From an uncultured Chloroflexia bacterium (lineage in GTDB: Bacteria > Chloroflexota > Limnocylindria > QHBO01): a stretch of 64,000 nucleotides of DNA. Location of the stretch: assembly GCA_963844415.1 (NCBI GenBank), contig CAWJOA010000005.1, positions 412,876-476,875 on the forward strand. Reading direction: 5' to 3'. A model generated the notes under the pieces. It was not told where the DNA came from. It saw only the letters and a list, made by a program, of their open reading frames with translations, and searched no databases. Positions 18,012 through 30,844 of this stretch are shown one piece after another (the first letter of the stretch is position 1; each line of letters starts with the position of its first letter). The position numbers and the translations under genes were made by a program.

Positions 18012-18131
18012 GCTCCTCCTGCCCTGTTCCGCGTCGCTCCGTCCCACCGGGCGTGTCTGGTTCTGGTCTTCCCGTGCGTTGTGAGTGGTGACGGCAGCTC
18101 AACTACGCTGCCGACCTCGGAGGTCAATCGC

Positions 18132-18677
18132 ATGAGGGTGTCGATCTTGGACGCGGACCATGAACTGGGCGCCGTCGGGACCGACCCCGTCCGGCTCGTG
18201 CCGTCGTCGTTTGCGCCGATGTACGAGGCACACCGCCTCAGTGTCTACCGGTACCTGCGTGCGAAGACCTCGAGCGACGACGAGGCGCTCGACCTGACAG
18301 CGGTGACCTTCGAGCGAGCCTTCGCCAACCACCGCCGCTTCCGGCGGCGCGACGGCGGGGTCCATGCCTGGCTCCTGCGGATCGCACGGAACGCCGCAAT
18401 CGACGCAAACCGTCGCCGCCGACCGACGATCGACCTCGCAGGAGCAGATGCCCATCTGGGCCGCCGCGCCGTCGAGGCGGACCGCCTGGCCCAACAGAAC
18501 GCCGAGGTGCTCGATCTCGTCGGGCGGCTTCCCGACGACCAGCGTGACGCCCTCCTCCTGCGGTATGCGGGCGGACTGACGGCCCGAGAGATCGGCATCG
18601 TCATGGGCAAGCGTGAATCAGCCGTTCAGAAGCAGATCGAGCGCGGGCTTGCCGCGCTCCGGGAGGCAATTCGATGA
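18132..18677 (+). CDS. ECF-type RNA polymerase sigma factor
   Basis: Track ORF 18081..18677. ATG 18132 follows GGAGG by 8 nt. Region 2: VYRYLRAKTSSDDEALDLTAVTFERAF. Region 4: LPDDQRDALLLRYAGGLTAREIG. Confidence 0.85.
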   Translation: MRVSILDADHELGAVGTDPVRLVPSSFAPMYEAHRLSVYRYLRAKTSSDDEALDLTAVTFERAFANHRRFRRRDGGVHAWLLRIARNAAIDANRRRRPTIDLAGADAHLGRRAVEADRLAQQNAEVLDLVGRLPDDQRDALLLRYAGGLTAREIGIVMGKRESAVQKQIERGLAALREAIR

Positions 18678-19798
18678 CCATGCATGACGACGTCGAGATC
18701 CGGCTTCGCCAGGCTCTCGAGGTGAGCCCTCCCGAGGAGGGCGGTCGGATGCTCGACGCTCGGGTCGCTCGCGCGATGAGCCAGCCGATCACAGCGCGAG
18801 GGTGGCGCTGGGGCGGCTCCTCCGCGCTCCTCAGAGCCGTCGCCCTCGCAGCGGCACTGGCCCTTCTGACCGGCACAGTGGCTGCCACACTGACCCTGCT
18901 CGACCGGATTGCCGGCGAGTCGACCCCGGGCGTCCAGGCGGCATGGCACAACGCCGAGCTATTGGCTATCGAGGAGACGCACGCCGGCGTGACGATCACC
19001 CTCGAACGCGCCTACGCGGACCTCAACCAGGTCGCGGTCTTCTTCACGGTCGAGGGACTCGACACGGTCACGTCTGACTCCGGAGAGACCGCGCCACTCG
19101 AGTGGACCGCCCAGCTTCGCGATCCAGCCGGCCGATCGGCGGAGGAGTGGGCCGTGGTCCGCAGCGGGACCGAGGCCAATGAGCTCGGCCTCTCGGCGAA
19201 CGTCCACACGTGGGAAGGCGCCGTCACACCGATGGCCGGCACGTGGGAGCTCACGTTCCCTTCGGTCGGCTACAACGGTGGCGGCTTCGTTGGCGGCGCG
19301 TGCGACGCGGAGTCGAACGATCCCGTGTGCGCCAGCTCGCCACCGAGCGCCATGGTCGAGGGCAGCTGGCAGTTCGAGTTCGCCCTGCCACCACCCGCGG
19401 GCTCGCTCGTGTCGACCGACCTGACGGCAACCGCAGATGACGCGATCGTGACGATCAGCGAGCTCCGCATCAGCCCCACGATGATCGCTGCGTCGATGGC
19501 CCTGCGGGTCGATGACGAGATCGTGACCTCCTGGGGAACGGCCAACAACACGCTCGTCTCGATCGAGGGACCCAGCGGCACCTATCCGGCCAACACCAGC
19601 TACCACGTGACGCAGGACCCGGATGACCAGGGACCGGACGGCGATCGGAACCTGTTCATGACCACCGAGGGATCTGACCAGGCCACCGGCTCCTGGACCA
19701 TCACCATCCCGCAGCTCTGGTACGCGACCGACGACGGTGGACCGGAGACGGGAACGACCGTGACCGAGCCGGTGACCTTCACGGTCGACGTGCCCTAG
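18674..19798 (+). CDS. Putative anti-sigma factor, single TM with large extracytoplasmic domain (DUF4179-like)
   Basis: Track ORF. ATGA overlap with the sigma gene. TM segment SALLRAVALAAALALLTGTVAATLTLL. Confidence 0.6.
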   Translation: MTMHDDVEIRLRQALEVSPPEEGGRMLDARVARAMSQPITARGWRWGGSSALLRAVALAAALALLTGTVAATLTLLDRIAGESTPGVQAAWHNAELLAIEETHAGVTITLERAYADLNQVAVFFTVEGLDTVTSDSGETAPLEWTAQLRDPAGRSAEEWAVVRSGTEANELGLSANVHTWEGAVTPMAGTWELTFPSVGYNGGGFVGGACDAESNDPVCASSPPSAMVEGSWQFEFALPPPAGSLVSTDLTATADDAIVTISELRISPTMIAASMALRVDDEIVTSWGTANNTLVSIEGPSGTYPANTSYHVTQDPDDQGPDGDRNLFMTTEGSDQATGSWTITIPQLWYATDDGGPETGTTVTEPVTFTVDVP

Positions 19799-19860: not shown

Positions 19861-22800
19861 ATGCAGGACGTGGCCGCCGCCGTGGCCCGGGATGATCCCG
19901 AGGCGTACATCGCGCGCGACCGCCGGCGAGCCCTGGCCGCCCATGAGCCGATGCCGGACCGCGTCACCGGCGCCGCGCTCTTCGCCGATATCTCCGGCTT
20001 CACCCCGCTGACCGAGGCGCTCGCCACCGAGCTCGGCCCACAGCGCGGCCCGGAGGAGCTCACCGCCCACATCGGCCGGGTCTTCCACGCCGTCATCGAA
20101 GAGCTGGACCGGCGCGGTGGCGACGTCATCTATTTCTCGGGCGACGCGATCACCTGCTGGCTCGATGGGGACGATGGGACCCGGGCCGTCGCGGCCGCTG
20201 TCGCGATGCAGGAGGCGATGGGGCGCGTCGGGCGGATCACGACGCCGGCCGGCACCACGGTCGACCTGGCGCTCAAGGTCGCGGTGGCGGTCGGCAGCGC
20301 GCGGCGCTTCGTCGTCGGCGACCCGCAGATCCAGCTCATCGACGTCCTTGCCGGCTCGCTCATCGACGACCTCGCCGAGGCGGAGCACTACGCCGCGAGC
20401 GGCGAGATCGTGCTCGACTCGTCGGCGCTCGCCGCGCTCGGCGACCGGGTGGAGATCGCCGAGGAGCGCCGCGACGCGGCAACCGGACGCACCTTCGCCG
20501 TCGTGCGAGGCCTCCGCGTCGACGTCCCGACCGTCGACGTCGTCGAGCCCCCGCGCCTCGACGACGGCCTCGTCCGCCCCTGGCTCCTCCCCGCCGTCTA
20601 CGAGCGGATGCGCGCCGGCCATGGCGAGCTGCTCGCCGAGCTGCGTCCCGCGTACCCGCTTTTCCTGCGCTTCGCGGGCATCGACTTCGACGACGATCCC
20701 GATGCGGTCGAGGCGCTCGACGCGTTCGTGCGATCCGCGCAGCGGATCATGTCGGGCTACGGCGGCAACTTGCTCCAGCTCACGCTCGGCGACAAGGGCG
20801 CCTACCTGTACGGCGTGTTCGGTTCGCCGATCGCCCACGAGGACGATGCCGCCCGCGCCGCGGCGGCCGCGCTCGAGCTGCGCGAGCTGGCGCGGACGAC
20901 GCGGGCGCGCGACATCCAGATCGGCATGGCCCGCGGGCGTCTGCGGAGCGGAACGTACGGGCACGCGATGCGGCGCACGTTCGTGTGCCTCGGCGACTCG
21001 GTGAACCTCGCCGCACGGCTGATGGCGAAGGCGCCGGCCGGTGGCATCTACGTCGACGACCGGGTCCGGACCGATGCCGGCGACGCCTACATCTGGGAGC
21101 GGCTCGGTGACCTCGAGGTCAAGGGCAAGAAGGGCGCGATCGTTGCGCACGCACTCACCGGCTCCCTCGAGCGCGCCTCGCGCCGGAAGACGCGCTATGA
21201 GCTCGAGCTCGTCGGCCGCCGGGCCGAGCTGGAGCGGCTCGAGACCGCGCTCGATCGCACCGTCGCCGGGGACGGCCGGATCGTCGCGATCGCGGCGGAG
21301 GCCGGCATGGGCAAGTCGAGGCTGATCGCCGAATTCGTCCGCAACGCGCGTCGCCGTGGGCTGTTCGTGGCCCTCGGCGAGTGCCAGTCGTTCGGCACGA
21401 ACGCCAGCTACCACGTCTGGAGCGAGATCTGGCGACGCCTCCTCGACCTCGACGAGGCCGACGGACCCGACCTCCAGCGCGAACGGCTGACGGCCGCCCT
21501 GGCCGGGGCCGATGCCGACCTCGTCGCGCGCGCACCACTGCTGGCCCCGGTCATCGGTCTCGAGATCCCCGACACCGAGCTCACCGCGTCGTTTGACGCG
21601 AAGCTGCGCAAGTCGTCGCTCGAGGACCTCCTCGCCACGTTGCTCCGCGCACGCGCGAGCCGCGAGCCGATCGTGCTCGTGCTCGAGGACTGCCACTGGA
21701 TCGATGCGCTCTCGCGCGATCTCCTCGAGGCGCTCGGTCGAACGGCCGCGGTGCTGCCGGTGCTCTTCGTCCTCGCGTACCGGCCCGACGCGACGCCCGG
21801 CGGCGGCCTCGGCGTCGAGCGCATCGCGGACTTCGAGGAGATCGTGCTCGACCAGCTCGATGCCGATGATGCGGCGACGCTCGTACGGTCGAAGCTGGCG
21901 CAGGTGCTCGGCGCATCGGCCCCCACCGAGGTCGGCGACGTGCTCGTGGCGCTCGTCCACGATCGGTCCGAGGGCAACCCCCTGTACGCCGAGGAGCTCG
22001 TCACCTACCTCGCCGGTCGCGGGATCGACCTCCACGACGCCGATGCCATCCGTGCCATCGAGCTGCCCGAGAGCCTCCACAGCCTCGTGCTGTCGCGGAT
22101 CGACGAGATGACCGATGCGCCCCGACGAACGCTCAAGGTCGCATCGGTCGTAGGACGCGTGTTCGAGGCGCCCATCATCTCCGGCGCCTACCCCGACCTC
22201 GGCGAGCTGCCCGAGGTCGTCGACAACCTCGACGTCCTGCGCACCGCGGACCTCGTGCGGCTCGATCGAGAGCTCGAGCAGGCCTACCTGTTCAAGCACG
22301 TCGCGACGCAGGAGGTGGCGTATACGAGTCTCCCCTTCGCCGTACGCGCGCGGCTCCACGTCCGCATCGGCTCGTACCTCGAGGCGTCCGATCCGGACGG
22401 GGTGGAGCGACGCCTGGACATCCTGGCCCACCATTTCTGGAACGGCGATGACGAGGAACGGAAGCGAACCTATCTCGCGCGCGCCGCGGACGCCGCGCGG
22501 GCGAGCTACGCGAACGCGGCCGCGGTGGACTACCTCACCCGGCTCGTCCCGCTGCTCGATGGCGGCGAGCGGGTCGAGTCGCTGCTGAAGCTCGCGAAGG
22601 CGCAGGAGTTCACCGGCGACTGGCCGACGGCCGAGGCCACGGCCCGCGACGCGCTGGCCGGCGCCACCGAGCTCGGCGACGACGCATCGTGCGGATGGGC
22701 CGAGGTCGGGCTGGCCGAGTCAACTCGCAAGCAGGGCCGCTTCGAGGAGGCGGGTGCGCATCTCGCGGCGGCGCGGGGCCACTTCGACGCAGTCGGCCTC

Positions 22801-23556
22801 GACGAGGGCGTGGGCCAGGTGCTCCACCTCGCCGGCACCGTCGCCGCGCAGCAGGGAGATCTCGTCGGCGCCCGGGAGCGGTACAACGAGAGCCTCGCCA
22901 TCCGCGAGCGCCTCGACGACAAGGCGAGCCTCGGCGGCCTCTACTCGAACCTCGCGATCGTCGCCGAGTACGAGGGCGACATGGCGACCGCGCGCCAGCA
23001 CAACGAGCGCGCGCTTGCCCTCCGACGCGAGGTCGGCGACAAGTGGGCGATCGGCGTGAGCGAGAACAACCTCGGGATGATCGCCCTGCACGAGAAGGCC
23101 TTCGAGGATGCCCGCGGCCACTTCGAGGCCTCGATGCGGCTGAACCGCGAGGTCGGCGACCCGTGGATGGTCGCGATCGGCCACAACAACCTCGGCAACG
23201 CGACCCGCGGCCTCGGCGACCTCGACGCCGCGCGCGAGCACTACGGCGCCGCCCTAGAGGCCTATCGCGACTACGACGACCGGTGGGCGATGGCGTTCCT
23301 GCTCGAGGACATGGGCATCCTGGCCGCTCGGGCGGGTGATCCGGAGGCGGCCCACGAGGCCATCGGGGTGGCCGAGCGCATGCGCGCCGAGATCGAGTCG
23401 CCTCGGGCGCCGGCGCTCGAGGAAGAGCTCGGCGCGGCACTGGCCGATGCGCGCGCCGCGCTCGGCGAGGAGTCGGCGGAGGCCGCCCTGGCGCGCGGAC
23501 GCACCATGGATGCGGACGGCGTCGAGGAGCTCGGGCGACGGATCTGCGCGTCGTGA
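19861..23556 (+). CDS. Tandem class III nucleotidyl cyclase domains + AAA (STAND-type) ATPase + TPR repeats, 1231 aa
   Basis: Track ORF, intact. Motifs ALFADISGFTPLTE...FSGDAITCWL, LGDKGAYLYGVFG...LGDSVNLAARLM, P-loop AAEAGMGKSRL. TPR-like helices occupy the last ~350 aa. TAGGAT-N6-ATG precedes the start. Confidence 0.85.
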   Translation: MQDVAAAVARDDPEAYIARDRRRALAAHEPMPDRVTGAALFADISGFTPLTEALATELGPQRGPEELTAHIGRVFHAVIEELDRRGGDVIYFSGDAITCWLDGDDGTRAVAAAVAMQEAMGRVGRITTPAGTTVDLALKVAVAVGSARRFVVGDPQIQLIDVLAGSLIDDLAEAEHYAASGEIVLDSSALAALGDRVEIAEERRDAATGRTFAVVRGLRVDVPTVDVVEPPRLDDGLVRPWLLPAVYERMRAGHGELLAELRPAYPLFLRFAGIDFDDDPDAVEALDAFVRSAQRIMSGYGGNLLQLTLGDKGAYLYGVFGSPIAHEDDAARAAAAALELRELARTTRARDIQIGMARGRLRSGTYGHAMRRTFVCLGDSVNLAARLMAKAPAGGIYVDDRVRTDAGDAYIWERLGDLEVKGKKGAIVAHALTGSLERASRRKTRYELELVGRRAELERLETALDRTVAGDGRIVAIAAEAGMGKSRLIAEFVRNARRRGLFVALGECQSFGTNASYHVWSEIWRRLLDLDEADGPDLQRERLTAALAGADADLVARAPLLAPVIGLEIPDTELTASFDAKLRKSSLEDLLATLLRARASREPIVLVLEDCHWIDALSRDLLEALGRTAAVLPVLFVLAYRPDATPGGGLGVERIADFEEIVLDQLDADDAATLVRSKLAQVLGASAPTEVGDVLVALVHDRSEGNPLYAEELVTYLAGRGIDLHDADAIRAIELPESLHSLVLSRIDEMTDAPRRTLKVASVVGRVFEAPIISGAYPDLGELPEVVDNLDVLRTADLVRLDRELEQAYLFKHVATQEVAYTSLPFAVRARLHVRIGSYLEASDPDGVERRLDILAHHFWNGDDEERKRTYLARAADAARASYANAAAVDYLTRLVPLLDGGERVESLLKLAKAQEFTGDWPTAEATARDALAGATELGDDASCGWAEVGLAESTRKQGRFEEAGAHLAAARGHFDAVGLDEGVGQVLHLAGTVAAQQGDLVGARERYNESLAIRERLDDKASLGGLYSNLAIVAEYEGDMATARQHNERALALRREVGDKWAIGVSENNLGMIALHEKAFEDARGHFEASMRLNREVGDPWMVAIGHNNLGNATRGLGDLDAAREHYGAALEAYRDYDDRWAMAFLLEDMGILAARAGDPEAAHEAIGVAERMRAEIESPRAPALEEELGAALADARAALGEESAEAALARGRTMDADGVEELGRRICAS

Positions 23557-23650: not shown

Positions 23651-26600
23651 TTGATCCGGCATCCCGAGCCCAGTGCCGCCCCGACCGTTCAGCGGTCGGT
23701 TACCCGCGCGATCGTCGCGTCCATCGCCGCCGTCGTCGCCCTCACCGGCGTCTTCACGCTGCCCCCCGCACCCACGCGCGCCGCGACGTTCACCGTCACG
23801 AGCACCACCGACTCTGGCCTTGGTTCGCTGCGCCAGGCGATCCTCGATGCCAACGCTGCGACCGGGGTCGACACGATCGACTTCAGCATCGCCGGCTCGG
23901 GACCTCACACGATCGCGCTCTTGTCCGCCCTGCCGCCCGCCGACGAGGCGATCACGATCGACGCGAGCGCCGAGCTGCTTGGCAGCGCGCCTGGCGTCGT
24001 CCTTGACGGGACCGCGACGAGCGCCGCCGACGGTCTCGTGATCGCCAATCCGCTCGGCTTCGGAACGATCATCGGTCTCCAGATCGTTAACTTCGACGGC
24101 GCAGGGATTCGGGTGATCGGGTCGGATGGCGCGATCGTCCGTGGCAACCGCATCGGTACCGACGGCTCAGCGGACCTCGGGAACGGCATCGGCGTCGCGG
24201 TCGAGGACTCCTTCGAGGTGATCGTCGGGGGGACCGATCCCTCTGACGGCAACGTCATCGCCTGGAACGACGGGGATGGCGTCCAGGTCGCGAACTCGGG
24301 CTCCGTCTCCGTCCGGGGGAACAGCATCCACGACAACGGCGGGCTCGGCATCGATCATCGACACCGATGGCGTCGGCGGTGGATTCGTCATTCGCCCGGC
24401 CATCACCGTCGGCGAGCGCGACCAGCATCGAGGGCACGCGCCGACCCCGACGTTTCAATCGAGGTCTTCGCCAACGCTGCCTGCGACGCCTCGGGCTCCG
24501 GCGAAGGCGCAGCGCTTCTCGGGACGACAACGTCAGGCCCGGCGGGCAACTGGACGATCGCTGCCCCGGCCACGAACGGGACGCAGCTGAGCGCAACTGC
24601 AACGTTCTCGGACATCAGCGAGACGACTACGTCCGAGTTCGGGACGTGCTTCGAGGTCGTCGACGGGCTGCCCGCTGCCGGGACATGGGTCGGCGAGAGG
24701 ACGTCAGCCACCGGCGGCGTCGTCCCCGGCGGCGATGCCGTGCTCGCCGCCGGATCGGCAGAAGCGGGACCCGCACAGTTCACGTATGGCGCCGCGGACC
24801 CGCTCCCGGACTCCGGGATCGGAGCGTCCGGATCCTGGACGTTCGAGACGACCGCGGCTGCCGCCGCCTCGATCGAGATCCCGTGGCGATACACCGGATT
24901 CCATGCCTTCGCCGGCGTGACCGTGGGCCTCGAAGCGTTCGTGACCGGTTCCGGGGACGTCATCACGCCGCAGCCACTGGTCAGCACGCTGGCGACGTCG
25001 TGCATCCCGATTCCGCCCGACCCGGGCTGCCCGGAGCCCTCGGGCGGCTTCGACTACAACGGGACTGTCGAGTTCAACGTCCAGCCCGGCGACATCTACG
25101 GCTTCATCCTGACGGGATCGAACGGCGATTCGAACGAGACGCTCCGCGGCGAGCTCGTGCTCGGCACGGAGCTGCCGACCGACTGTGCCGATGCACAGGC
25201 GCTGTACGCCGCCGACGATGACGGCCGCTACGTGATCCTGCCGGCCGGGGGCCAGCGGTTCTCGGTGCACTGCGCCGACATGGACGCGACGGCCAAGGAC
25301 TACCTCGAGCTCCATCCCCAGGTCACGGGCCCGGGCTTCAACTTCAGCTCGTACGCCGCCGGCGGCGCGTCCCCCGGGACGACGGTCACATCCTCGTTCA
25401 CGAAGGTCCGTCTCAATCCCGCCACATTGCTGGTCGACATCGACGACAGGACGTTCTCGAATCCCGCGGGAGGGCTGACGCACAGCCAGGTTTCCGACCC
25501 GCATCCCGTGAGCTCGATGCCATTTGCAACCGCGATGGCCTGTAACAACGGCGCCGCGAACGGCACCGCAAACGTCAACCTGTTCGGCACCCCGTTTGTC
25601 GTCGACGACGCCTGGACCCCGAGCGGAACGGCTTCGTCCAACTTCGACAGCGCGACCTTCTCGGCCGGCGACACGGTGGTGGACATCGAGGGCAACGGTT
25701 TCTGCGGCTGGAATCACCCTGACCAGGCCGGGCCGTTCTACGTCTTCGATCCGAACCCGAACCGGTTCGTCCTCCAGCTCGCATACGCGACCGATGCGGT
25801 GCAGCTCGAGACTCCGACGCTGTTCGCATCGGTGAGCCGGGGTCCAACGACCGCGGACCTCTACGGGCGAGTCGATGGCGCGCAGAACACGCCGCTCGAC
25901 GTCGCGATTCACACGAGCGCGAGCTGCACCGACGGGGTGCTGACGAGCCCGGGGGCACCGCTGACGACGGAGAGACGTCACCACCGATGCGGAGGGGTAT
26001 CTGCGCCTCGAGAACATCGACGGCATCGCATCGGGCGACTACGTGACGATCACGGTCACCGCGCCGGATGCCACGGCAGCCTCGTCGTGCGTTCGCACGA
26101 CGGCGGACAACGACTACTGGCCGAAGGCCCTCGAGGTGTCCGCCGGTGCCCAGGACGTGGTGGAGATCGAAGGCCGGGCGCGCTGGTATCGGTTCCCGAT
26201 CGTCCCGGACCAGCAGATCACCGTAACGCTGTCGAGCCTGCCGGCGGACTACGACCTTGCGATCTTCCGCGACATCGCCGCCGAGTTCGAGTCGCAGCTC
26301 GTTCCGGCGAACGCGGACGACCTGACCCGGCTCTCGGCCGAGTTCGCCCCGAGCGTGTTCAGCCCCAGCGTCTTCTCGCCATCGGTCTTCAGCCCGAGCG
26401 TGTTCAGCCCGGACGCCTACGCGCCGAGCGTGTTCAGCCCGAGCGTCTTCTCGCCATCGGTCTTCAGCCCGAGCGTCTTCTCGCCATCGGTCTTCAGCCC
26501 GAGCGTCTTCTCGCCATCGGTCTTCAGCCCGAGCGTGTTCAGCCCGAGCGTGTTCAGCCCGAGCGTCTTCTCGCCATCGGTCTTCAGCCCGAGCGTGTTC

Positions 26601-29600
26601 AGCCCGAGCGTGTTCAGCCCGGAGGAGATCTCGCAGGCCTTCTCGAGCGCCCAGACCCGGAGCCTGATCGGGGTCTCGGCCACGCCCGGCACCGGTGACG
26701 AGACGGTCGTCGTGAATTCCTGGAACAACACCGGCTCCTTCTACGTGCGCGTGACGGGTCGAGGCGGCGCCTTCGATCCGGAAGACCTCTTCACGGTTTC
26801 GGTCGCGAAGTCCGCGAGCACATGCGAGGGCGTCGCGGAGCTTGACGACTCGGTCGCGGCGTTCGCCGCGGTTCCAAGCCTCAGCCAGGTCGAGACCGGC
26901 GCGCCGGTGGAGACGGTGATCCTCACCGACTCGTCCGAGCTCACGCTGGGTTCCGGCGCGGGTTCGCTGCAGTCCCACCTCGACGCGCTCGCCGCGCACG
27001 AGCGGGCGAACGGCGTGATCATCGACGTCAACGATGCTCAGTGGGCGGATCGGATCGCGCCGCTGCGGCAGCAGATGGAGGACAGCGCGGACTGCCCATA
27101 CGCTGCGAACCTCCTCGCGGAGGAGATCAAGAGCATCGTCGACCTGCACCGTGCCACCAACGACATCCGGTACGTCACGATCATCGGCGATGACACCGTC
27201 ATCCCGTTCTTCCGCTACCCCGACCAGAGCGGGCTGGGCCCGGAGTCGCAGTACTTCCCGCCGACCGCCAGCGACACGACCTCCGACGCCAGCCTGCGAC
27301 GTGACTTCGTCCTGAGCCAGGACGCGTACGGCGCCGACGTCAGCATCGACATTCGCACGAACGTCTTCCCCATCCCCGACCTCGCCGTCGGACGCCTGGT
27401 GGAGAGCGAAGCCGAGATCACGAACATGATCGACGCGTTCCTCGACGTGGATGGCACGGTCACCCCCGGCAACTCCCTCGTCACCGGCTACGACTTCCTG
27501 ACCGATGCGGCCGACGCAGTCGTGACCGAACTCGATGAAGGCGGCACCGACGTCGACGAGCTGATCACCGATGCGGACGTGTCGCCACAGCAGCTCGAAG
27601 CGCCAAGCCTCACCGATCCACGACGCTGGTCGTGGACGGCCGACGACCTGCGTGAAGAGCTCCTCGGCGAGCGCCACGATGTCGTCTACCTCGCCGGTCA
27701 CTTCAGCGCCCAGAGCGCGCTGGCCGCCGACTACGACACCAGCGTCCTGACGAGCGAGCTCGCGAGCTCGGACGTCGACCTCCGCAACTCGCTCGTGTTC
27801 AGCGGTGGCTGCCACTCCGGCTACAACCTCGTCGACGGCCACGCGCTGGTGACCACCTCTCCGCTCGACTGGGCGCAGGCCTTCGCGCAGAAGGGCGCCG
27901 TCCTCGTCGGTGGCACCGGCTACCAGTACGGCGACACCGAGTTCCTCGAGTACTCCGAACGGCTGTACCGCGACTTCGCCGAGGAGCTTCGCGCCGGCCA
28001 GGCGGGCACGGCCATCTCCATCGGTGAAGCGCTCATGCGCGCGAAGCGCACGTACCTCGCCACGACCCCGGACATCCGGGGCATCCACGAGAAGGCGATC
28101 CTCGAGGCGACGGTCTTCGGGCTCCCGATGTTCGGCGTCGACATGCCCGACGGCCGCGGCGCGGTCCCCGGGACCGGTGGCGGGACGCTGGATCCGATGG
28201 AGATCGACATCCTGGAACCCGCCGGTGAGCTGGGCCTGGCCACGCACGACCTCGACTTCGTGAGCCAGAACACGGCGGACAGCCTGGAGCTCGACGTCGT
28301 CGAGGCAGGCGGCGTGACCGGGACCGTCACTGCGCACTGGTTCAACGGCCCGTCGGGCGTCGTCACGAATCCGGCCGATCCGGCACTGCCGAAGCACGTC
28401 GAATCGGTCACGTCAGAGGACTCGTCGCAGGTGCTTCGAGGTGTTGGCTGGCGCGGCGGCGAGTACATCGAGGAGGACGAGATCCTGCCGTTGACCGGCG
28501 CGCCGACGACCGAGCTGCGCGGCGTCCATGCGCCCTTCGTCTCACCGGTCTTCTATCCGATGAAGATGTGGACGCCCAACTACTTCGGCCAGCTCAGCGG
28601 GTCGGGCGGGACGAATCTCATCGTGACACCGGTCCAGCACAAGACCGATACGGCGCACCCGGGCCAGACCATTCGGCGCGAATTCACCGATCTCGACCTT
28701 CGGCTGTTCTACAGCTCGAACCTGACAGACGCGGCGCTCTCCGATGCGCCGACGATCGTGAAAGTCTCGACGGCGCCGGATGGAGGCGACATCGTGTTCC
28801 GCGCCGACGTCGTCGGCGACCCGAAGGCGGCCGTGCATGAGGTCTGGATCGTTGCAACCGACGGCGGCGGGACCTGGGCACCGCTCGACCTGCAGCAGTG
28901 CACGCTCGAGACCCCGGCCGACTCGTTGCCGGTCGACTGCGATGGGCTCGACGACTCGAGAGTCTGGGTGGGACGGCTGGCGAACGCACCCTCCAGCATC
29001 GACTATGTCGTCCAGGCGGCGAGCGGTGTCGGACTCGTGGCCTTCGACGACAACCGCGGCCAGTACTACGCCGCGTCGACGACGCCCGCACCCGAGCCGG
29101 TCGCCACGACCCTGACGCTCAACGCCCCGTCGAACGGGACGTACGGCGATACCGCGATCGTGAACGTCGACCTGACGGCGTCCGGCAGCCCGGTGCCGGA
29201 CGCGCTCGTGTTCATCAAGGTCGGCGGCACCGGCGCGGTCGGGATCACCGACGCCTTCGGCCACGCGTCGGTTCCGGTGTCGCTGAACTCGACACCGGCG
29301 ACAAGCCAGGTCACCGCGTCGTTCGGGGGCATGCCGGGGTACCTGCCGTCGACTGCCAGCGCGCCATTCACGATCGCGAAGGCGCCGACCGACTTCGGCC
29401 CATTGACCCCGTTCCTCACGACGACCGAGATCGGCGAGGGCCGTGCACTGACCGTCCTGACCGCCGAACGGGGCGACACGACGCAGCCCCTCATCGATAC
29501 GAGCGTCACGGTCACGCTCTCCGGCGCAACGACCCAGGTCCTGTCGGTGAAGACGAACTACCTCGGCGAGGTCAAGCTGCCCGTGGGCGTCGCGCCGGGG

Positions 29601-30005
29601 TCGTACACCGTGACGGTCGTATTCGCGGGTGATGTGACCTATGAGCCGGCATCGGCATCGGGAACGGCCGCCGTCGTCGACTTCCACTTCCTCGCGCCGA
29701 TCGACGAGGCCCCGGTCGTGAACGTGGTGAAGCCCGGATCGACCGTACCGATCAAGTTCAGCCTCGGCGGCAACCATGGCCTCGGGGTCCTGGATGGGAC
29801 GCCGCGGACCGTCGCCTACGACTGCGACACGGGCGCCCTGCAGGATCCGGTGGAGACCACGAACACCGCGAACAGCGGCCTGACCTTCTCGGACGGGGTC
29901 TACCAGTACAACTGGAAGACGGCGAAGAATGCCCGCGGCTGCTTCCGGTTCGAGCTCGCCCTCGACGACGGCAGCGTCTACGTCGCGCTCTTCCGGCTGC
30001 GCTGA
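23651..30005 (+). CDS. Giant secreted multidomain protein (~2100 aa once frames are joined): signal peptide, CSLREA/parallel beta-helix repeats, GON domain, PPC-like domain with (S/A)PSVF repeat, clan-CD-like Cys peptidase-like domain, Ig-like repeats, C-terminal PxKF domain
   Basis: Joins track ORFs 23651..26698 and 26043..30005. TTG 23651 follows GAGGA by 5 nt. Signal peptide AIVASIAAVVALTGVFTLPPAPTRA. Motifs: GSLRQAILDAN; GNRIGTDG/GNSIHDNGGLGID; GRYVILPAGGQRFSVHCADM...KVRLNP (GON); RARWYRFPI...ADYDLAIF...GSFYVRVTG (PPC-like); IIGDDTVIPFF, YLAGHFSA, FSGGCHSG; VKPGSTVPIKFSL...YQYNWKT...CFRFEL (PxKF). Frame breaks near 24356, 24407, 24439 and 25968. Confidence 0.75.
26346..26615 (+). repeat. 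18 tandem 15-bp units encoding (S/A)PSVF x17 plus one SPDAY, in frame inside the giant gene
   Basis: Three alternating unit variants: agcccgagcgtgttc, agcccgagcgtcttc, tcgccatcggtcttc. Higher-order 30- and 60-nt periodicity is visible. Confidence 0.95.
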
Positions 30006-30127: not shown

Positions 30128-30844
30128 ATGGCGAACCTGCGCATCACCAGGCTCGGGCACGGCGGCGTCCTGTATCGGTCGCCCGACGACGCCTGGGTCT
30201 GGGTGGACCGATGGACCGGCGCGCCAACCTACGCCGATGCGTTCCGCACCGCGGACAAGGTGAGCGTCGTTGCGCCGACGCACTGCCACTTCGACCACGT
30301 CGGCGACGACTGCGTCGATCTCGTCGAGCTGGCCAGCGTCGAGGGCGCCGCGACGATCGGCTCGCACGAGATGAGCATCTGGCTCGCCGGCCGCGGCGTC
30401 GAGGCGATCGGGATGAACAAGGGCGGCACGGTCGAGGCGGCCGGCATCCGCATCACGATGGTCCACGCCGACCACACCGGCGGAGCAACACTCACCACCG
30501 GCTCCGAGCAGGTCACGCGCGACTTCGGCTGCTGGGGCTGGGTCCTCGAGTTCGAGGACGGCACGACGGTCTATCACTCCGGCGACACCGACCTGTTCGG
30601 CGATATGAACCTCGTTCGCGAGCGCTTCGAGCCCGAGATCGCGGTGCTGCCGATCGGCGGGCACTACACGATGGGACCGCGCGACGCTGGCCGGGCGCTG
30701 GCCCTGATCGGTGCGTCGACGGTCATCCCGGTCCACTACGGCACCTTCCCGATCCTGGCCGGAACGCCGGACCAGCTCGCGGATGCGACCGACGCGCGCG
30801 TCGTCGCCCTCGAGCCGGGCGAGACCTGGGAAGCCGAGCCGTAA
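30128..30844 (+). CDS. MBL-fold metal-dependent hydrolase (UPF0173 family)
   Basis: Track ORF. Motifs PTHCHFDHVGD, YHSGDTDLF, VIPVHYGTF. GAGGAGAG Shine-Dalgarno 5 nt upstream. Confidence 0.8.
   Translation: MANLRITRLGHGGVLYRSPDDAWVWVDRWTGAPTYADAFRTADKVSVVAPTHCHFDHVGDDCVDLVELASVEGAATIGSHEMSIWLAGRGVEAIGMNKGGTVEAAGIRITMVHADHTGGATLTTGSEQVTRDFGCWGWVLEFEDGTTVYHSGDTDLFGDMNLVRERFEPEIAVLPIGGHYTMGPRDAGRALALIGASTVIPVHYGTFPILAGTPDQLADATDARVVALEPGETWEAEP

What the first reader, a model, noticed from the sequence alone, without database searches (positions are those of the whole stretch)
26346..26615. Seventeen in-frame (S/A)PSVF pentapeptide units encoded by near-perfect 15-bp repeats inserted inside a PPC-like domain
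There are 18 consecutive 15-bp units built from three codon variants: agcccgagcgtgttc, agcccgagcgtcttc and tcgccatcggtcttc. Their 30- and 60-nt super-periodicity implies recent unequal recombination or slippage. The repeat sits between the two halves of the PPC-like fold (after ADYDLAIFRD..., before ...GSFYVRVTG). It is not the classical A(D/N)LXX pentapeptide-repeat family. A perfect array of this kind is a candidate length-variable (contingency-like) module, or a linker or substrate-mimic for the adjacent peptidase-like domain. It is also a likely place for assembly collapse or expansion.
Basis: seen in the sequence. Interest (0 to 1): 0.6.

Follow-up and report, generated by a model that had tools for sequence, protein, structure and literature searches.

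The report
Conserved fixed-length SPSVF pentapeptide loop
A run of 18 near-identical five-residue units (SPSVF) inside a secreted protease-like protein is an ancient part of a large undescribed protein family, kept letter-perfect and at a fixed length by selection, and is not a variable "contingency" repeat; its function is unknown.

Summary
Window 26346-26615 holds 18 in-frame 15-bp units: 17 x (S/A)PSVF, with SPDAY as unit 5. A degenerate 19th unit (SPEEI) follows. All lie in the + strand gene 23651-30005.

AlphaFold2 and Foldseek confirm three of its points:
- The array is a ~95-residue insertion in a loop of a PPC/collagen-binding-type beta-sandwich.
- It lies just before a clan-CD (C25-like) peptidase domain with an invariant His/Cys pair.
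- It is not a classical pentapeptide-repeat beta-helix.

It is neither a contingency module nor a one-off expansion:
- Nearly all of ~300 homologues examined from Chloroflexota, Actinomycetota and Proteobacteria carry an array at the same place.
- About 70% of the first 120 have 18-19 units, usually with SPDAY at unit 5.
- 54 strain-level variants in 10 clusters show no length variation.

Units are letter-perfect within a protein but differ between lineages (at least 29 independent whole-array switches). Identical peptides are often encoded by nearly all-different codons, and neighbouring units avoid the same codons.

The window's copy is an ordinary family member with recent partial DNA homogenisation. 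My best guess at function is a fixed-length, non-globular loop of multiple identical motifs, read by a lineage-specific partner. I found no publication that describes it.

The parts
26346..26615 (+). Array of 18 in-frame 15-bp units: 17 x (S/A)PSVF plus SPDAY at unit 5
26406..26420 (+). Irregular unit 5 (SPDAY), followed by an A-initial unit. This positional landmark is conserved across phyla.
   Evidence: SPDAY or SPEAY is at unit 5 in 86 of 169 non-redundant arrays; 87 of 102 arrays with a Tyr/Trp unit have exactly 4 units before it
26616..26630 (+). Degenerate 19th unit (SPEEI), leading into the conserved helix SQAFSSAQTRS
26097..26267 (+). N-terminal half of the PPC/collagen-binding-type beta-sandwich (strands up to ADYDLAIF)
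   Evidence: AF2 pLDDT above 90; Foldseek matches to ColG/ColH collagen-binding domains and PPC 5sv5, TMt 0.68-0.73
26274..26342 (+). Two short helices (IAAEFESQL, ADDLTRLSAE) leading into the array; the DLTxLSAE(F/Y) motif is conserved
26631..26810 (+). Conserved helix (SQAFSSAQTRS) and C-terminal half of the beta-sandwich (IGVSAT...GSFYVRVTG...)
26904..28166 (+). Clan-CD (Peptidase_C25-like) domain. His at 27699-27701 (LAGHFS) and Cys at 27810-27812 (GGCHSG) are invariant in the family.
   Evidence: Pfam PF01364, 42.4 bits against a cut-off of 23; invariant columns H535 and C572; Foldseek matches to separase, CHAT and caspases
23651..30005 (+). Whole gene for a roughly 2100-aa secreted protein: signal peptide, beta-helix, GON, PPC-like domain with array, clan-CD domain, Ig-like domain, PxKF C-terminal domain. 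One frame break lies at about 25952-25973.
   Evidence: tblastn of the intact relative P0308, 2113 aa, gives two pieces in different frames
19861..23556 (+). Neighbouring 1231-aa cytoplasmic gene with Guanylate_cyc, AAA_16 and TPR domains; a conserved partner of the family
   Evidence: Its best orthologue lies within a few kb of the giant gene in 41 of 50 genomes (one search compared with the ranges).

Best explanation
Shown: the array is the local copy of an ancient module that belongs to a large, unnamed family of giant secreted proteins. In every member, a loop of a PPC-like beta-sandwich just upstream of a clan-CD peptidase-like domain carries about 18-19 tandem pentapeptides, each with an aromatic residue at position 5. 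Selection keeps three things constant:
- the units, which stay letter-identical within a protein;
- the number of units and the total insertion length;
- a landmark irregular unit (SPDAY) at position 5.
The unit's two inner residues differ between lineages. At the DNA level, units are occasionally replaced by unequal recombination or gene conversion; the window's array is a recently homogenised example. Length-changing variants and identical neighbouring units are purged.

Inferred (about 40% likely): the array does not fold into a globular domain. It works as a fixed-length flexible loop that displays about 18 equivalent short motifs centred on the junction ...F|S-P.... This would be a multivalent docking array, substrate-like or pseudo-substrate-like, for a partner that reads each unit in a lineage-specific way. 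The most probable partner is the clan-CD domain of the same protein, about 100 residues downstream.
For: Conservation:
- The array is at the same site in all 120 closest homologues, with 18-19 units in 82 of 118.
- 494 relatives were found in species-level genomes of Chloroflexota, Actinomycetota and Beta/Gammaproteobacteria.
- The peptidase domain alone finds 2695 cluster representatives.
- Insertion length has a median of 128 aa, and 68% fall within 120-129 aa.
- There is no length variation among 54 complete arrays in 10 clusters at >=90% identity.

Selection on the peptide:
- Identical units are encoded by up to 17 different DNA variants out of 18.
- About half of the arrays fit independent codon choice.
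- Gaiellaceae arrays are positionally orthologous.
- Lineage-specific units arose through at least 29 independent whole-array switches.

Invariant junction:
- Position 5 is F or Y in 96% of units, position 1 is S, A or T in 99%, and position 2 is P in 98.5%. Positions 3 and 4 vary.

Non-globular state:
- In two independent AF2 runs (the window's SPSVF array and the SPDAF homologue L068), array pLDDT is 29-43, between domains with pLDDT above 90.

Design against slippage:
- Neighbouring units are more different than random pairs in 85% of 82 arrays (Wilcoxon 7e-9).
- Identical neighbours number 64 observed against 103 expected.
- The effect also holds in non-homogenised arrays.

Turnover at constant count:
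- The window and L082/L083 have about 90% flank identity and the same three codon variants in a different order, and all have 19 units.
Against: - Low pLDDT is not proof of disorder. AF2 is weak on perfect repeats.
- The conserved count and the landmark unit 5 could equally indicate a defined three-dimensional architecture.
- A contrast test over 24-29 independent unit-type switches found no column of the sandwich or peptidase that consistently tracks the unit type. The one significant column is a noisy S/A site, and the test is underpowered and confounded by divergence.
- The array contains none of the usual clan-CD P1 residues (R, K, N). Asp appears only in D-type lineages.
- Distant members have Pro-less units (TSNAF, SGQAF, TSSGF) and acidic units (SPDAF, SPEAF). 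Only the period-5 aromatic is universal, so the F|S-P junction motif does not hold across the whole family.
- There are no biochemical data of any kind.
Confidence: 0.4

Rival explanations
1. The array folds, alone, with metal ions or on oligomerisation, into a regular repeat structure. Examples would be a solenoid-like coil of 3-4 units per turn or a stacked aromatic ladder. AlphaFold2 cannot model this. On this reading the fixed number of units sets the length of a rigid rod or spacer.
For: - The count, the total length and the landmark irregular unit are tightly conserved. That is typical of a defined architecture.
- The period-5 aromatic is universal, even in Pro-less arrays such as TSNAF x19.
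- Identity of all units would suit homotypic stacking.
Against: - Two AF2 runs give pLDDT 29-43 and no strands.
- No Pentapeptide-clan HMM matches at E<=10.
- No PDB sequence relative was found.
- The residue that would point inward two positions before Phe is Ser, Asp, Glu, Gln or Asn depending on lineage. This is hard to reconcile with a single hydrophobic core.
Confidence: 0.22
2. The array is a multi-copy peptide precursor. It would be cut after each aromatic residue, by the cis clan-CD domain or another protease, releasing about 17 identical lineage-specific pentapeptides. These would act as a signal sensed by the TPR domain of the neighbouring STAND cyclase.
For: - Letter-identical copies are kept by selection despite scrambled codons, and the 'word' is lineage-specific. 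This is the pattern seen in multi-copy pheromone or neuropeptide precursors (my own knowledge).
- The invariant residues straddle the unit junction F|S-P.
- A peptidase domain lies in cis.
- A Guanylate_cyc-AAA_16-TPR gene is adjacent in 41 of 50 genomes across phyla.
Against: - A precursor does not need a fixed copy number or a conserved irregular unit at position 5.
- No spacer or classical processing sites are present.
- No oligopeptide importer was seen in the four distant neighbourhoods inspected.
- No peptidase column co-varies with the unit type.
- An earlier scan note on the same family (e1-4886510) reports that later checks priced the sensor-binds-word idea at 25/100, with several tests against it. 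I have not verified this.
Confidence: 0.12
3. The array is a passive linker or a carrier of post-translational modification, for example an O-glycosylated Ser/Pro-rich stalk. On this reading the exact sequence matters little.
For: - The composition is Ser/Pro-rich.
- There is a weak Extensin_1 match.
- The array is predicted to be non-globular.
Against: - Letter-perfect units with saturated synonymous sites show strong constraint on every residue.
- Some arrays have no Ser or Thr at all, for example LPDQF.
- No glycosyltransferase or other modifying enzyme is conserved in the neighbourhoods inspected.
Confidence: 0.1
4. The array is a contingency-like, length-variable module produced by recent slippage. 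Alternatively it is a neutral one-off expansion.
For: In this window, four DNA variants make up the 15 SPSVF units, with 30- and 60-nt super-periods. The order of variants differs from the nearest relatives.
Against: - The count is identical in all strain-level variants and in the nearest relatives.
- The family mode is 18-19 units across three phyla.
- Codons are scrambled and neighbouring units are dissimilar.
- The unit is a multiple of 3 nt, so slippage would not switch the gene on or off.
Confidence: 0.03
5. The array length is an assembly artefact, either a collapse or an expansion.
For: - Logan short-read contigs of other samples all break inside the array.
- A few homologues from short-read assemblies have 11-13 units while their close relatives have 18-19. 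These may be collapsed.
Against: - The window's count (18+1) equals the family mode and equals that of relatives assembled independently from other samples (L082, L083, P0308, P0313).
- The genome is in 9 contigs, which suggests a long-read assembly that spans a 285-bp array.
Confidence: 0.02

Closest known systems
Pentapeptide repeat proteins (Rfr fold; Pfam PF00805, PF13599, PF13576; e.g. MfpA, Qnr, HetL)
   Same: Tandem 5-residue period with a Phe or Leu-type residue once per unit, a small residue two positions before it, and tens of units.
   Different: There is no A(D/N)LXX consensus and no HMM match even at E<=10. Pro occurs once per unit. AF2, which normally models Rfr helices well, predicts no beta-helix. 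Here the array is a loop insertion in another domain, with a fixed count of about 18-19 units.
In-frame 15-bp coding repeats of Neisseria surface proteins (AAEAP/AASAP pentapeptides of Lip/H.8, Laz, AniA) and contingency loci in general (my own knowledge)
   Same: 15-bp in-frame units encode Ser/Ala/Pro-rich pentapeptides in exported proteins. The repeat regions are non-globular.
   Different: Those arrays vary in number between strains and are DNA-level perfect repeats. Here the count is invariant among strain-level variants, codons are scrambled and neighbouring units avoid identity.
Multi-copy peptide precursors (yeast alpha-factor MFalpha1, fungal dikaritin precursors such as UstA, FMRFamide-type neuropeptide precursors) and RRNPP-type TPR peptide receptors (my own knowledge)
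   Same: Many identical copies of a short peptide are kept by selection while synonymous sites drift. The peptide identity is lineage-specific. A protease and a TPR-containing sensor are encoded in cis or next door.
   Different: There are no spacers or dibasic processing sites. The array is embedded in a loop of a folded domain of a 2100-aa protein. Copy number is fixed and there is a conserved irregular unit. Release of peptides has not been shown.
Hydrophobic Pro-containing pentapeptide repeats of elastomeric or cohesive low-complexity proteins (elastin VPGVG, FG-nucleoporin repeats) (my own knowledge)
   Same: Regularly spaced hydrophobic or aromatic residues separated by small residues, with Pro preventing long strands. 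Predicted to be non-globular.
   Different: There is almost no Gly in the SPSVF type. Some lineages are uniformly acidic (SPDAF, SPEAF), so no common material property is conserved. The length is short and fixed, not long and variable.
PPC / collagenase collagen-binding beta-sandwich (PF04151; PDB 1nqd, 3jqw, 5sv5)
   Same: The host domain has the same fold: Foldseek probability 0.99-1.0 and TMt 0.68-0.73.
   Different: The sequence match is below the Pfam cut-off (13.7 against 25.9 bits). The domain lies N-terminal to the peptidase. It carries a roughly 128-aa helix-array-helix insertion that known PPC domains lack.
Peptidase family C25 / clan CD (gingipains, PorU; by fold also separase, CHAT, caspases)
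   Same: Pfam PF01364 scores above its cut-off. The His/Cys dyad is invariant. The fold matches clan-CD enzymes.
   Different: No PDB sequence relative was found. Activity and specificity are unknown. The architecture is different (variable N-terminal modules, PPC-like domain with array, Ig-like domain, PxKF).

Membership tests
Pentapeptide repeat proteins (Pfam clan Pentapeptide) | Sequence matches the A(D/N)LXX-type HMMs (PF00805, PF13599, PF13576) | tested here: not met
   hmmscan of the array, and of the array plus flanks, at E<=10 lists only Extensin_1, HCNGP, PPC (weak) and Keratin_B2_2. No Pentapeptide family appears.
Pentapeptide repeat proteins (Pfam clan Pentapeptide) | Right-handed quadrilateral beta-helix with four units per coil | tested here: inconclusive
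   Two AF2 runs give pLDDT 29-43 and no strands over the array. A low-confidence prediction does not prove that the fold is absent.
Contingency (phase- or length-variable) repeat loci | Repeat number differs between strains or close relatives | tested here: not met
   54 complete arrays in 10 clusters at >=90% identity show zero variation within a cluster. The window and its nearest relatives all have 19 units.
Contingency (phase- or length-variable) repeat loci | Perfect DNA-level repeats that favour slippage | tested here: not met
   Family-wide, identical peptides use up to 17 codon variants out of 18. Identical neighbours are depleted, 64 observed against 103 expected. The window itself is more homogeneous (4 variants), but its neighbouring units are still more dissimilar than chance (z=2.1).
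PPC / collagen-binding beta-sandwich (PF04151) | HMM score above the gathering cut-off | tested here: not met
   13.7 bits against a cut-off of 25.9, matching the C-terminal half only.
PPC / collagen-binding beta-sandwich (PF04151) | Same three-dimensional fold | tested here: met
   Foldseek matches 1nqd, 3jqw, 2o8o and 5sv5 with probability 0.99-1.0 and TMt 0.68-0.73, on a model with pLDDT above 90 in this part.
Peptidase family C25 / clan CD | HMM above cut-off and a conserved catalytic His and Cys | tested here: met
   PF01364 scores 42.4 bits against a cut-off of 23. H535 and C572 are invariant in 72 and 59 sequences. Fold matches to separase, CHAT and caspases.
Peptidase family C25 / clan CD | Proteolytic activity | not testable with these tools
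   Needs an enzyme assay.
Extensin-like repeats (PF02095) | HMM above the gathering cut-off | tested here: not met
   27-31 bits against a cut-off of 105. This is a compositional match to Ser-Pro.
Multi-copy peptide precursor with cognate sensor | Identical copies maintained by selection on the peptide | tested here: met
Multi-copy peptide precursor with cognate sensor | Copies are excised and released | not testable with these tools
   Needs peptidomics or mass spectrometry.
Multi-copy peptide precursor with cognate sensor | A receptor for the peptide is encoded nearby | tested here: inconclusive
   A Guanylate_cyc-AAA_16-TPR gene is adjacent in 41 of 50 genomes. Binding was not tested. The gene is absent or distant in 9 of 50.

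The most novel reading that the evidence does not exclude
The array would be the payload of an undescribed bacterial peptide-signalling system found in three phyla. A secreted protein carries about 17 identical copies of a lineage-specific pentapeptide next to its own clan-CD protease. The copies are cut out after the aromatic residue and are sensed, after uptake, by the TPR domain of the adjacent STAND-type nucleotide cyclase. The signal is thereby converted into a cyclic-nucleotide output.
Probability: 0.12. Interest if true: 0.85.

Novelty: new variant of a known kind. Interest (0 to 1): 0.58.

Why it matters
Tandem coding repeats in bacterial surface proteins are usually read as fast-evolving, length-variable material. 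This array shows the opposite regime:
- about 18 letter-identical pentapeptides are held at a fixed number across Chloroflexota, Actinomycetota and Proteobacteria;
- their codons are scrambled, and neighbouring units avoid the same codons;
- the whole array has nevertheless switched its "word" at least 29 times.

This combination points to a precise, still unknown molecular job for a module that has no Pfam or NCBIfam model, and that I could not find in the papers I could search. The module occurs in thousands of soil and water bacteria, coupled to a clan-CD peptidase domain and, in most genomes, to a sensor-cyclase gene.

It is also a clean natural example of selection acting on repeat number and on DNA-level repeat stability. 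For annotation, it warns that shorter arrays in short-read assemblies of this family are probably collapsed.

Tried and rejected
- Read-level test of unit number. No run holds the source strain (best word share 0.29). The Logan contigs of four metagenomes all break inside the array, so the test is uninformative.
- Sequence search of the PDB with the sandwich plus array, and with the peptidase part. No hits.
- Literature search for the repeat strings, six-residue substrings and 'PxKF domain'. Nothing relevant. A search for multi-copy RRNPP propeptides found nothing usable.
- Covariation of unit type with columns of the sandwich or peptidase, over 24-29 phylogenetically independent contrasts. 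One column passed Bonferroni correction but is a noisy S/A site with no consistent mapping. Differing pairs were also more divergent than control pairs. I treat the result as negative and underpowered.
- Nei-Gojobori pN/pS among units. Rejected as a measure because AGY<->TCN serine switches are counted as non-synonymous. I used counts of DNA variants against codon-usage simulations instead.
- Search for a conserved modifying enzyme or peptide importer near the gene. None was seen in seven neighbourhoods.
- Paralogues in the window's own genome. Only this one copy was found.

Full report
**Observation**

In the frame of the + strand ORF 26043-30005, positions 26346-26615 read as 18 consecutive 15-bp units. 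These are APSVF, three SPSVF, SPDAY (unit 5), APSVF and twelve SPSVF. A degenerate SPEEI unit follows at 26616-26630. Tandem Repeats Finder reports periods of 15, 30 and 60 nt.

**Context**

- The ORF is the downstream part of one gene, 23651-30005. tblastn of an intact relative (P0308, 2113 aa) gives two pieces in different frames, meeting at about 25952-25973. Relatives are continuous at that point, so the break is either a local frameshift or a sequencing error.
- Pfam and NCBIfam find Beta_helix and GON in the upstream part. In the downstream part they find Peptidase_C25 (42 bits against a cut-off of 23), Big_3_5 and a C-terminal PxKF domain.
- AlphaFold2 on residues 26097-28202 with 72 homologues gives a confident model (pTM 0.83). 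Residues 1-57 and 190-238 form one beta-sandwich, and residues ~270-690 form a peptidase domain, both with pLDDT above 90. The array (residues 85-171) has pLDDT 32-43 and is flanked by short helices.
- Foldseek matches the peptidase part to separase, CHAT/Craspase and caspases. It matches the sandwich to collagenase collagen-binding and PPC domains, with TMt about 0.7.
- His535 and Cys572 (window 27699-27701 and 27810-27812) are invariant.
So is the statement that it is not a classical pentapeptide repeat: no Pentapeptide HMM matches at E<=10, and no beta-helix is predicted.
- A second AF2 run on a distant SPDAF-type homologue (L068), with an independent alignment, gave the same picture. The array had pLDDT 29-42.

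**The array is a family character, not a local accident**

- A word-indexed search found more than 1000 homologues. All 120 listed carry an array at the same site.
- A scan of one genome per species found 494 relatives in Limnocylindria and other Chloroflexota, in Gaiellales, Acidimicrobiia and other Actinomycetota, and in Beta- and Gammaproteobacteria.
- The peptidase domain alone finds 2695 cluster representatives.
- Unit number is 18 or 19 in 82 of 118 complete arrays. The range is mostly 16-22, with one outlier of 65.
- The insertion between the PADYDL and SSAQTRS anchors has a median length of 128 aa, and 68% fall within 120-129 aa.
- SPDAY or SPEAY is unit 5 in 86 of 169 non-redundant arrays. 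Of 102 arrays with a Tyr/Trp unit, 87 have exactly four units before it.
- Within ten clusters at >=90% identity, which sample strain-level variants from independent assemblies, all 54 complete arrays have the cluster's own count.
- This rules out the contingency reading. It also makes an assembly artefact in the window unlikely, since the window's count equals that of independently assembled relatives.
- A few 11-13-unit arrays from short-read assemblies have close relatives with 18-19 units and are probably collapsed.

**Evolutionary signature**

- Within a protein the units are almost letter-identical. Between lineages they differ: SPSVF, SPSAF, SPAVF, SPTVF, SPSTF, SPSIF, SPDAF, SPDIF, SPEAF and others.
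- On a tree of the flanking domains, at least 29 phylogenetically independent whole-array switches can be placed.
- Distant members even have Pro-less units (TSNAF, SGQAF, TSSGF). Only the period-5 aromatic residue is universal.
- At the DNA level, identical peptides are often written with nearly all-different codons, for example 17 variants for 18 SPDAF units in L068.
- Simulations from each gene's own codon usage show that about half of 80 arrays fit independent codon choice. The other half, 42 arrays, have too few variants, which indicates partial homogenisation. The window is one of the most homogenised, with 4 variants against 12.4 expected.
- Compared with its nearest relatives (about 90% flank identity), the window uses the same three variants in a different order, at the same total count. 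Units therefore turn over by recombination while the number is held.
- In Gaiellaceae and one betaproteobacterial pair, the arrays are positionally orthologous, that is, stable.
- Neighbouring units are systematically more different at synonymous sites than random pairs of the same array: 85% of 82 arrays, Wilcoxon 7e-9, with 64 identical neighbours observed against 103 expected. This also holds in non-homogenised arrays (p=0.002). It is driven partly by alternation of AGY and TCN serine codons.
- This is what one expects if slippage-prone arrays, or their length variants, are purged. One caveat is that the arrays are phylogenetically related, so these P values overstate independence.

**Mechanism**

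What is shown is strong purifying selection on four things: every residue of every unit, the number of units, a positional landmark, and DNA-level repeat stability.

What is inferred is how the array works. The invariant residues in the close family straddle the unit junction (F|S-P), and the two inner residues are lineage-specific yet uniform. The array is predicted to be non-globular. On that basis I favour, at about 40%, a fixed-length loop that displays about 18 equivalent motifs to a lineage-specific reader. The most probable reader is the clan-CD domain in cis, with the array acting as tethered substrate or pseudo-substrate.

Several points count against this:
- The conserved count and landmark would also fit a folded repeat that AF2 cannot model (about 22%).
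- My covariation test found no peptidase column that tracks the unit type, although the test is underpowered.
- The F|S-P junction is not conserved in distant members.

**A conserved neighbour**

The 1231-aa Guanylate_cyc-AAA_16-TPR gene upstream (19861-23556) has its best orthologue within a few kb of the giant gene in 41 of 50 genomes from all three phyla. It lies upstream in some lineages and downstream in others (one search compared). This led me to a bolder reading: a peptide-signal precursor whose released pentapeptides are sensed by the TPR domain. I give it about 12% here. A precursor does not explain the fixed count or the landmark unit, and nothing shows release or binding.

**Novelty**

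No paper in the searchable library contains the repeat strings or the PxKF domain name. No Pfam or NCBIfam model covers the array. No PDB sequence relative exists. The window's copy is an ordinary member of this undescribed module.

Noticed in passing
window 25952-25973: There is a single frame break in the giant gene. The upstream part (23651-25951) and the downstream part (25974-30002) match the intact 2113-aa relative P0308 in different frames. Compared with L082, the window lacks 2 nt near CGG-AGAG-ACG. The nearest relatives L082 and L083 are also split, at other places, which suggests long-read indel errors more than decay.
   Followed up: partly
window 19861-23556 (+) and loci L002-L081: The Guanylate_cyc-AAA_16-TPR (STAND-type) gene is adjacent to the giant gene in 41 of 50 genomes across Chloroflexota, Actinomycetota and Betaproteobacteria. 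It lies upstream in Limnocylindria and Gaiellales and downstream in Anaerolineae. This looks like a conserved two-gene module.
   Followed up: partly
window 18081-19798 (+): An ECF-type sigma factor (Sigma70_r2/r4) and a weak DUF4179 protein, probably the anti-sigma factor, lie directly upstream of the cyclase gene on the same strand.
   Followed up: no
P0082 (Chloroflexota MAG protein, 1501 aa): This is an outlier with about 65 (S/A)PDAF units in several blocks, where the family norm is 18-19. It is either a real expansion or an assembly artefact.
   Followed up: no
P0138, P0150, P0153, P0191, P0246 (distant family members): The arrays sit at the same site but have Pro-less units: SGQAF/SAQAF, TSSGF, TASGF and TSNAF x19. 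They still have irregular Tyr units early in the array. Only the period-5 aromatic residue is universal.
   Followed up: partly
P0012, P0030, P0035, P0036: These arrays have 11-13 units and come from contigs of 6-17 kb, mostly JGI, NCBI or Logan metagenome assemblies. Their close relatives have 18-19 units. They are probably assembly collapses of the repeat.
   Followed up: no
arrays of L002-L084 and the window: Both serine codon families (AGY and TCN) are used at the same peptide positions within single arrays. They alternate between neighbouring units more often than chance (663 switches against 529 expected, out of 1303). Moving between the two families requires two or more base changes through a non-Ser codon.
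   Followed up: partly
window 30128-30844 (+); L083, L084: A metallo-beta-lactamase-fold gene directly downstream of the giant gene is syntenic in the close relatives. It is followed there by a gamma-glutamyltranspeptidase gene.
   Followed up: no
L054 and L055 (one Chloroflexia MAG, two contigs): The same genome carries two copies of the locus with 100% identical arrays and flanks. Each copy has a cyclase gene next to it.
   Followed up: no
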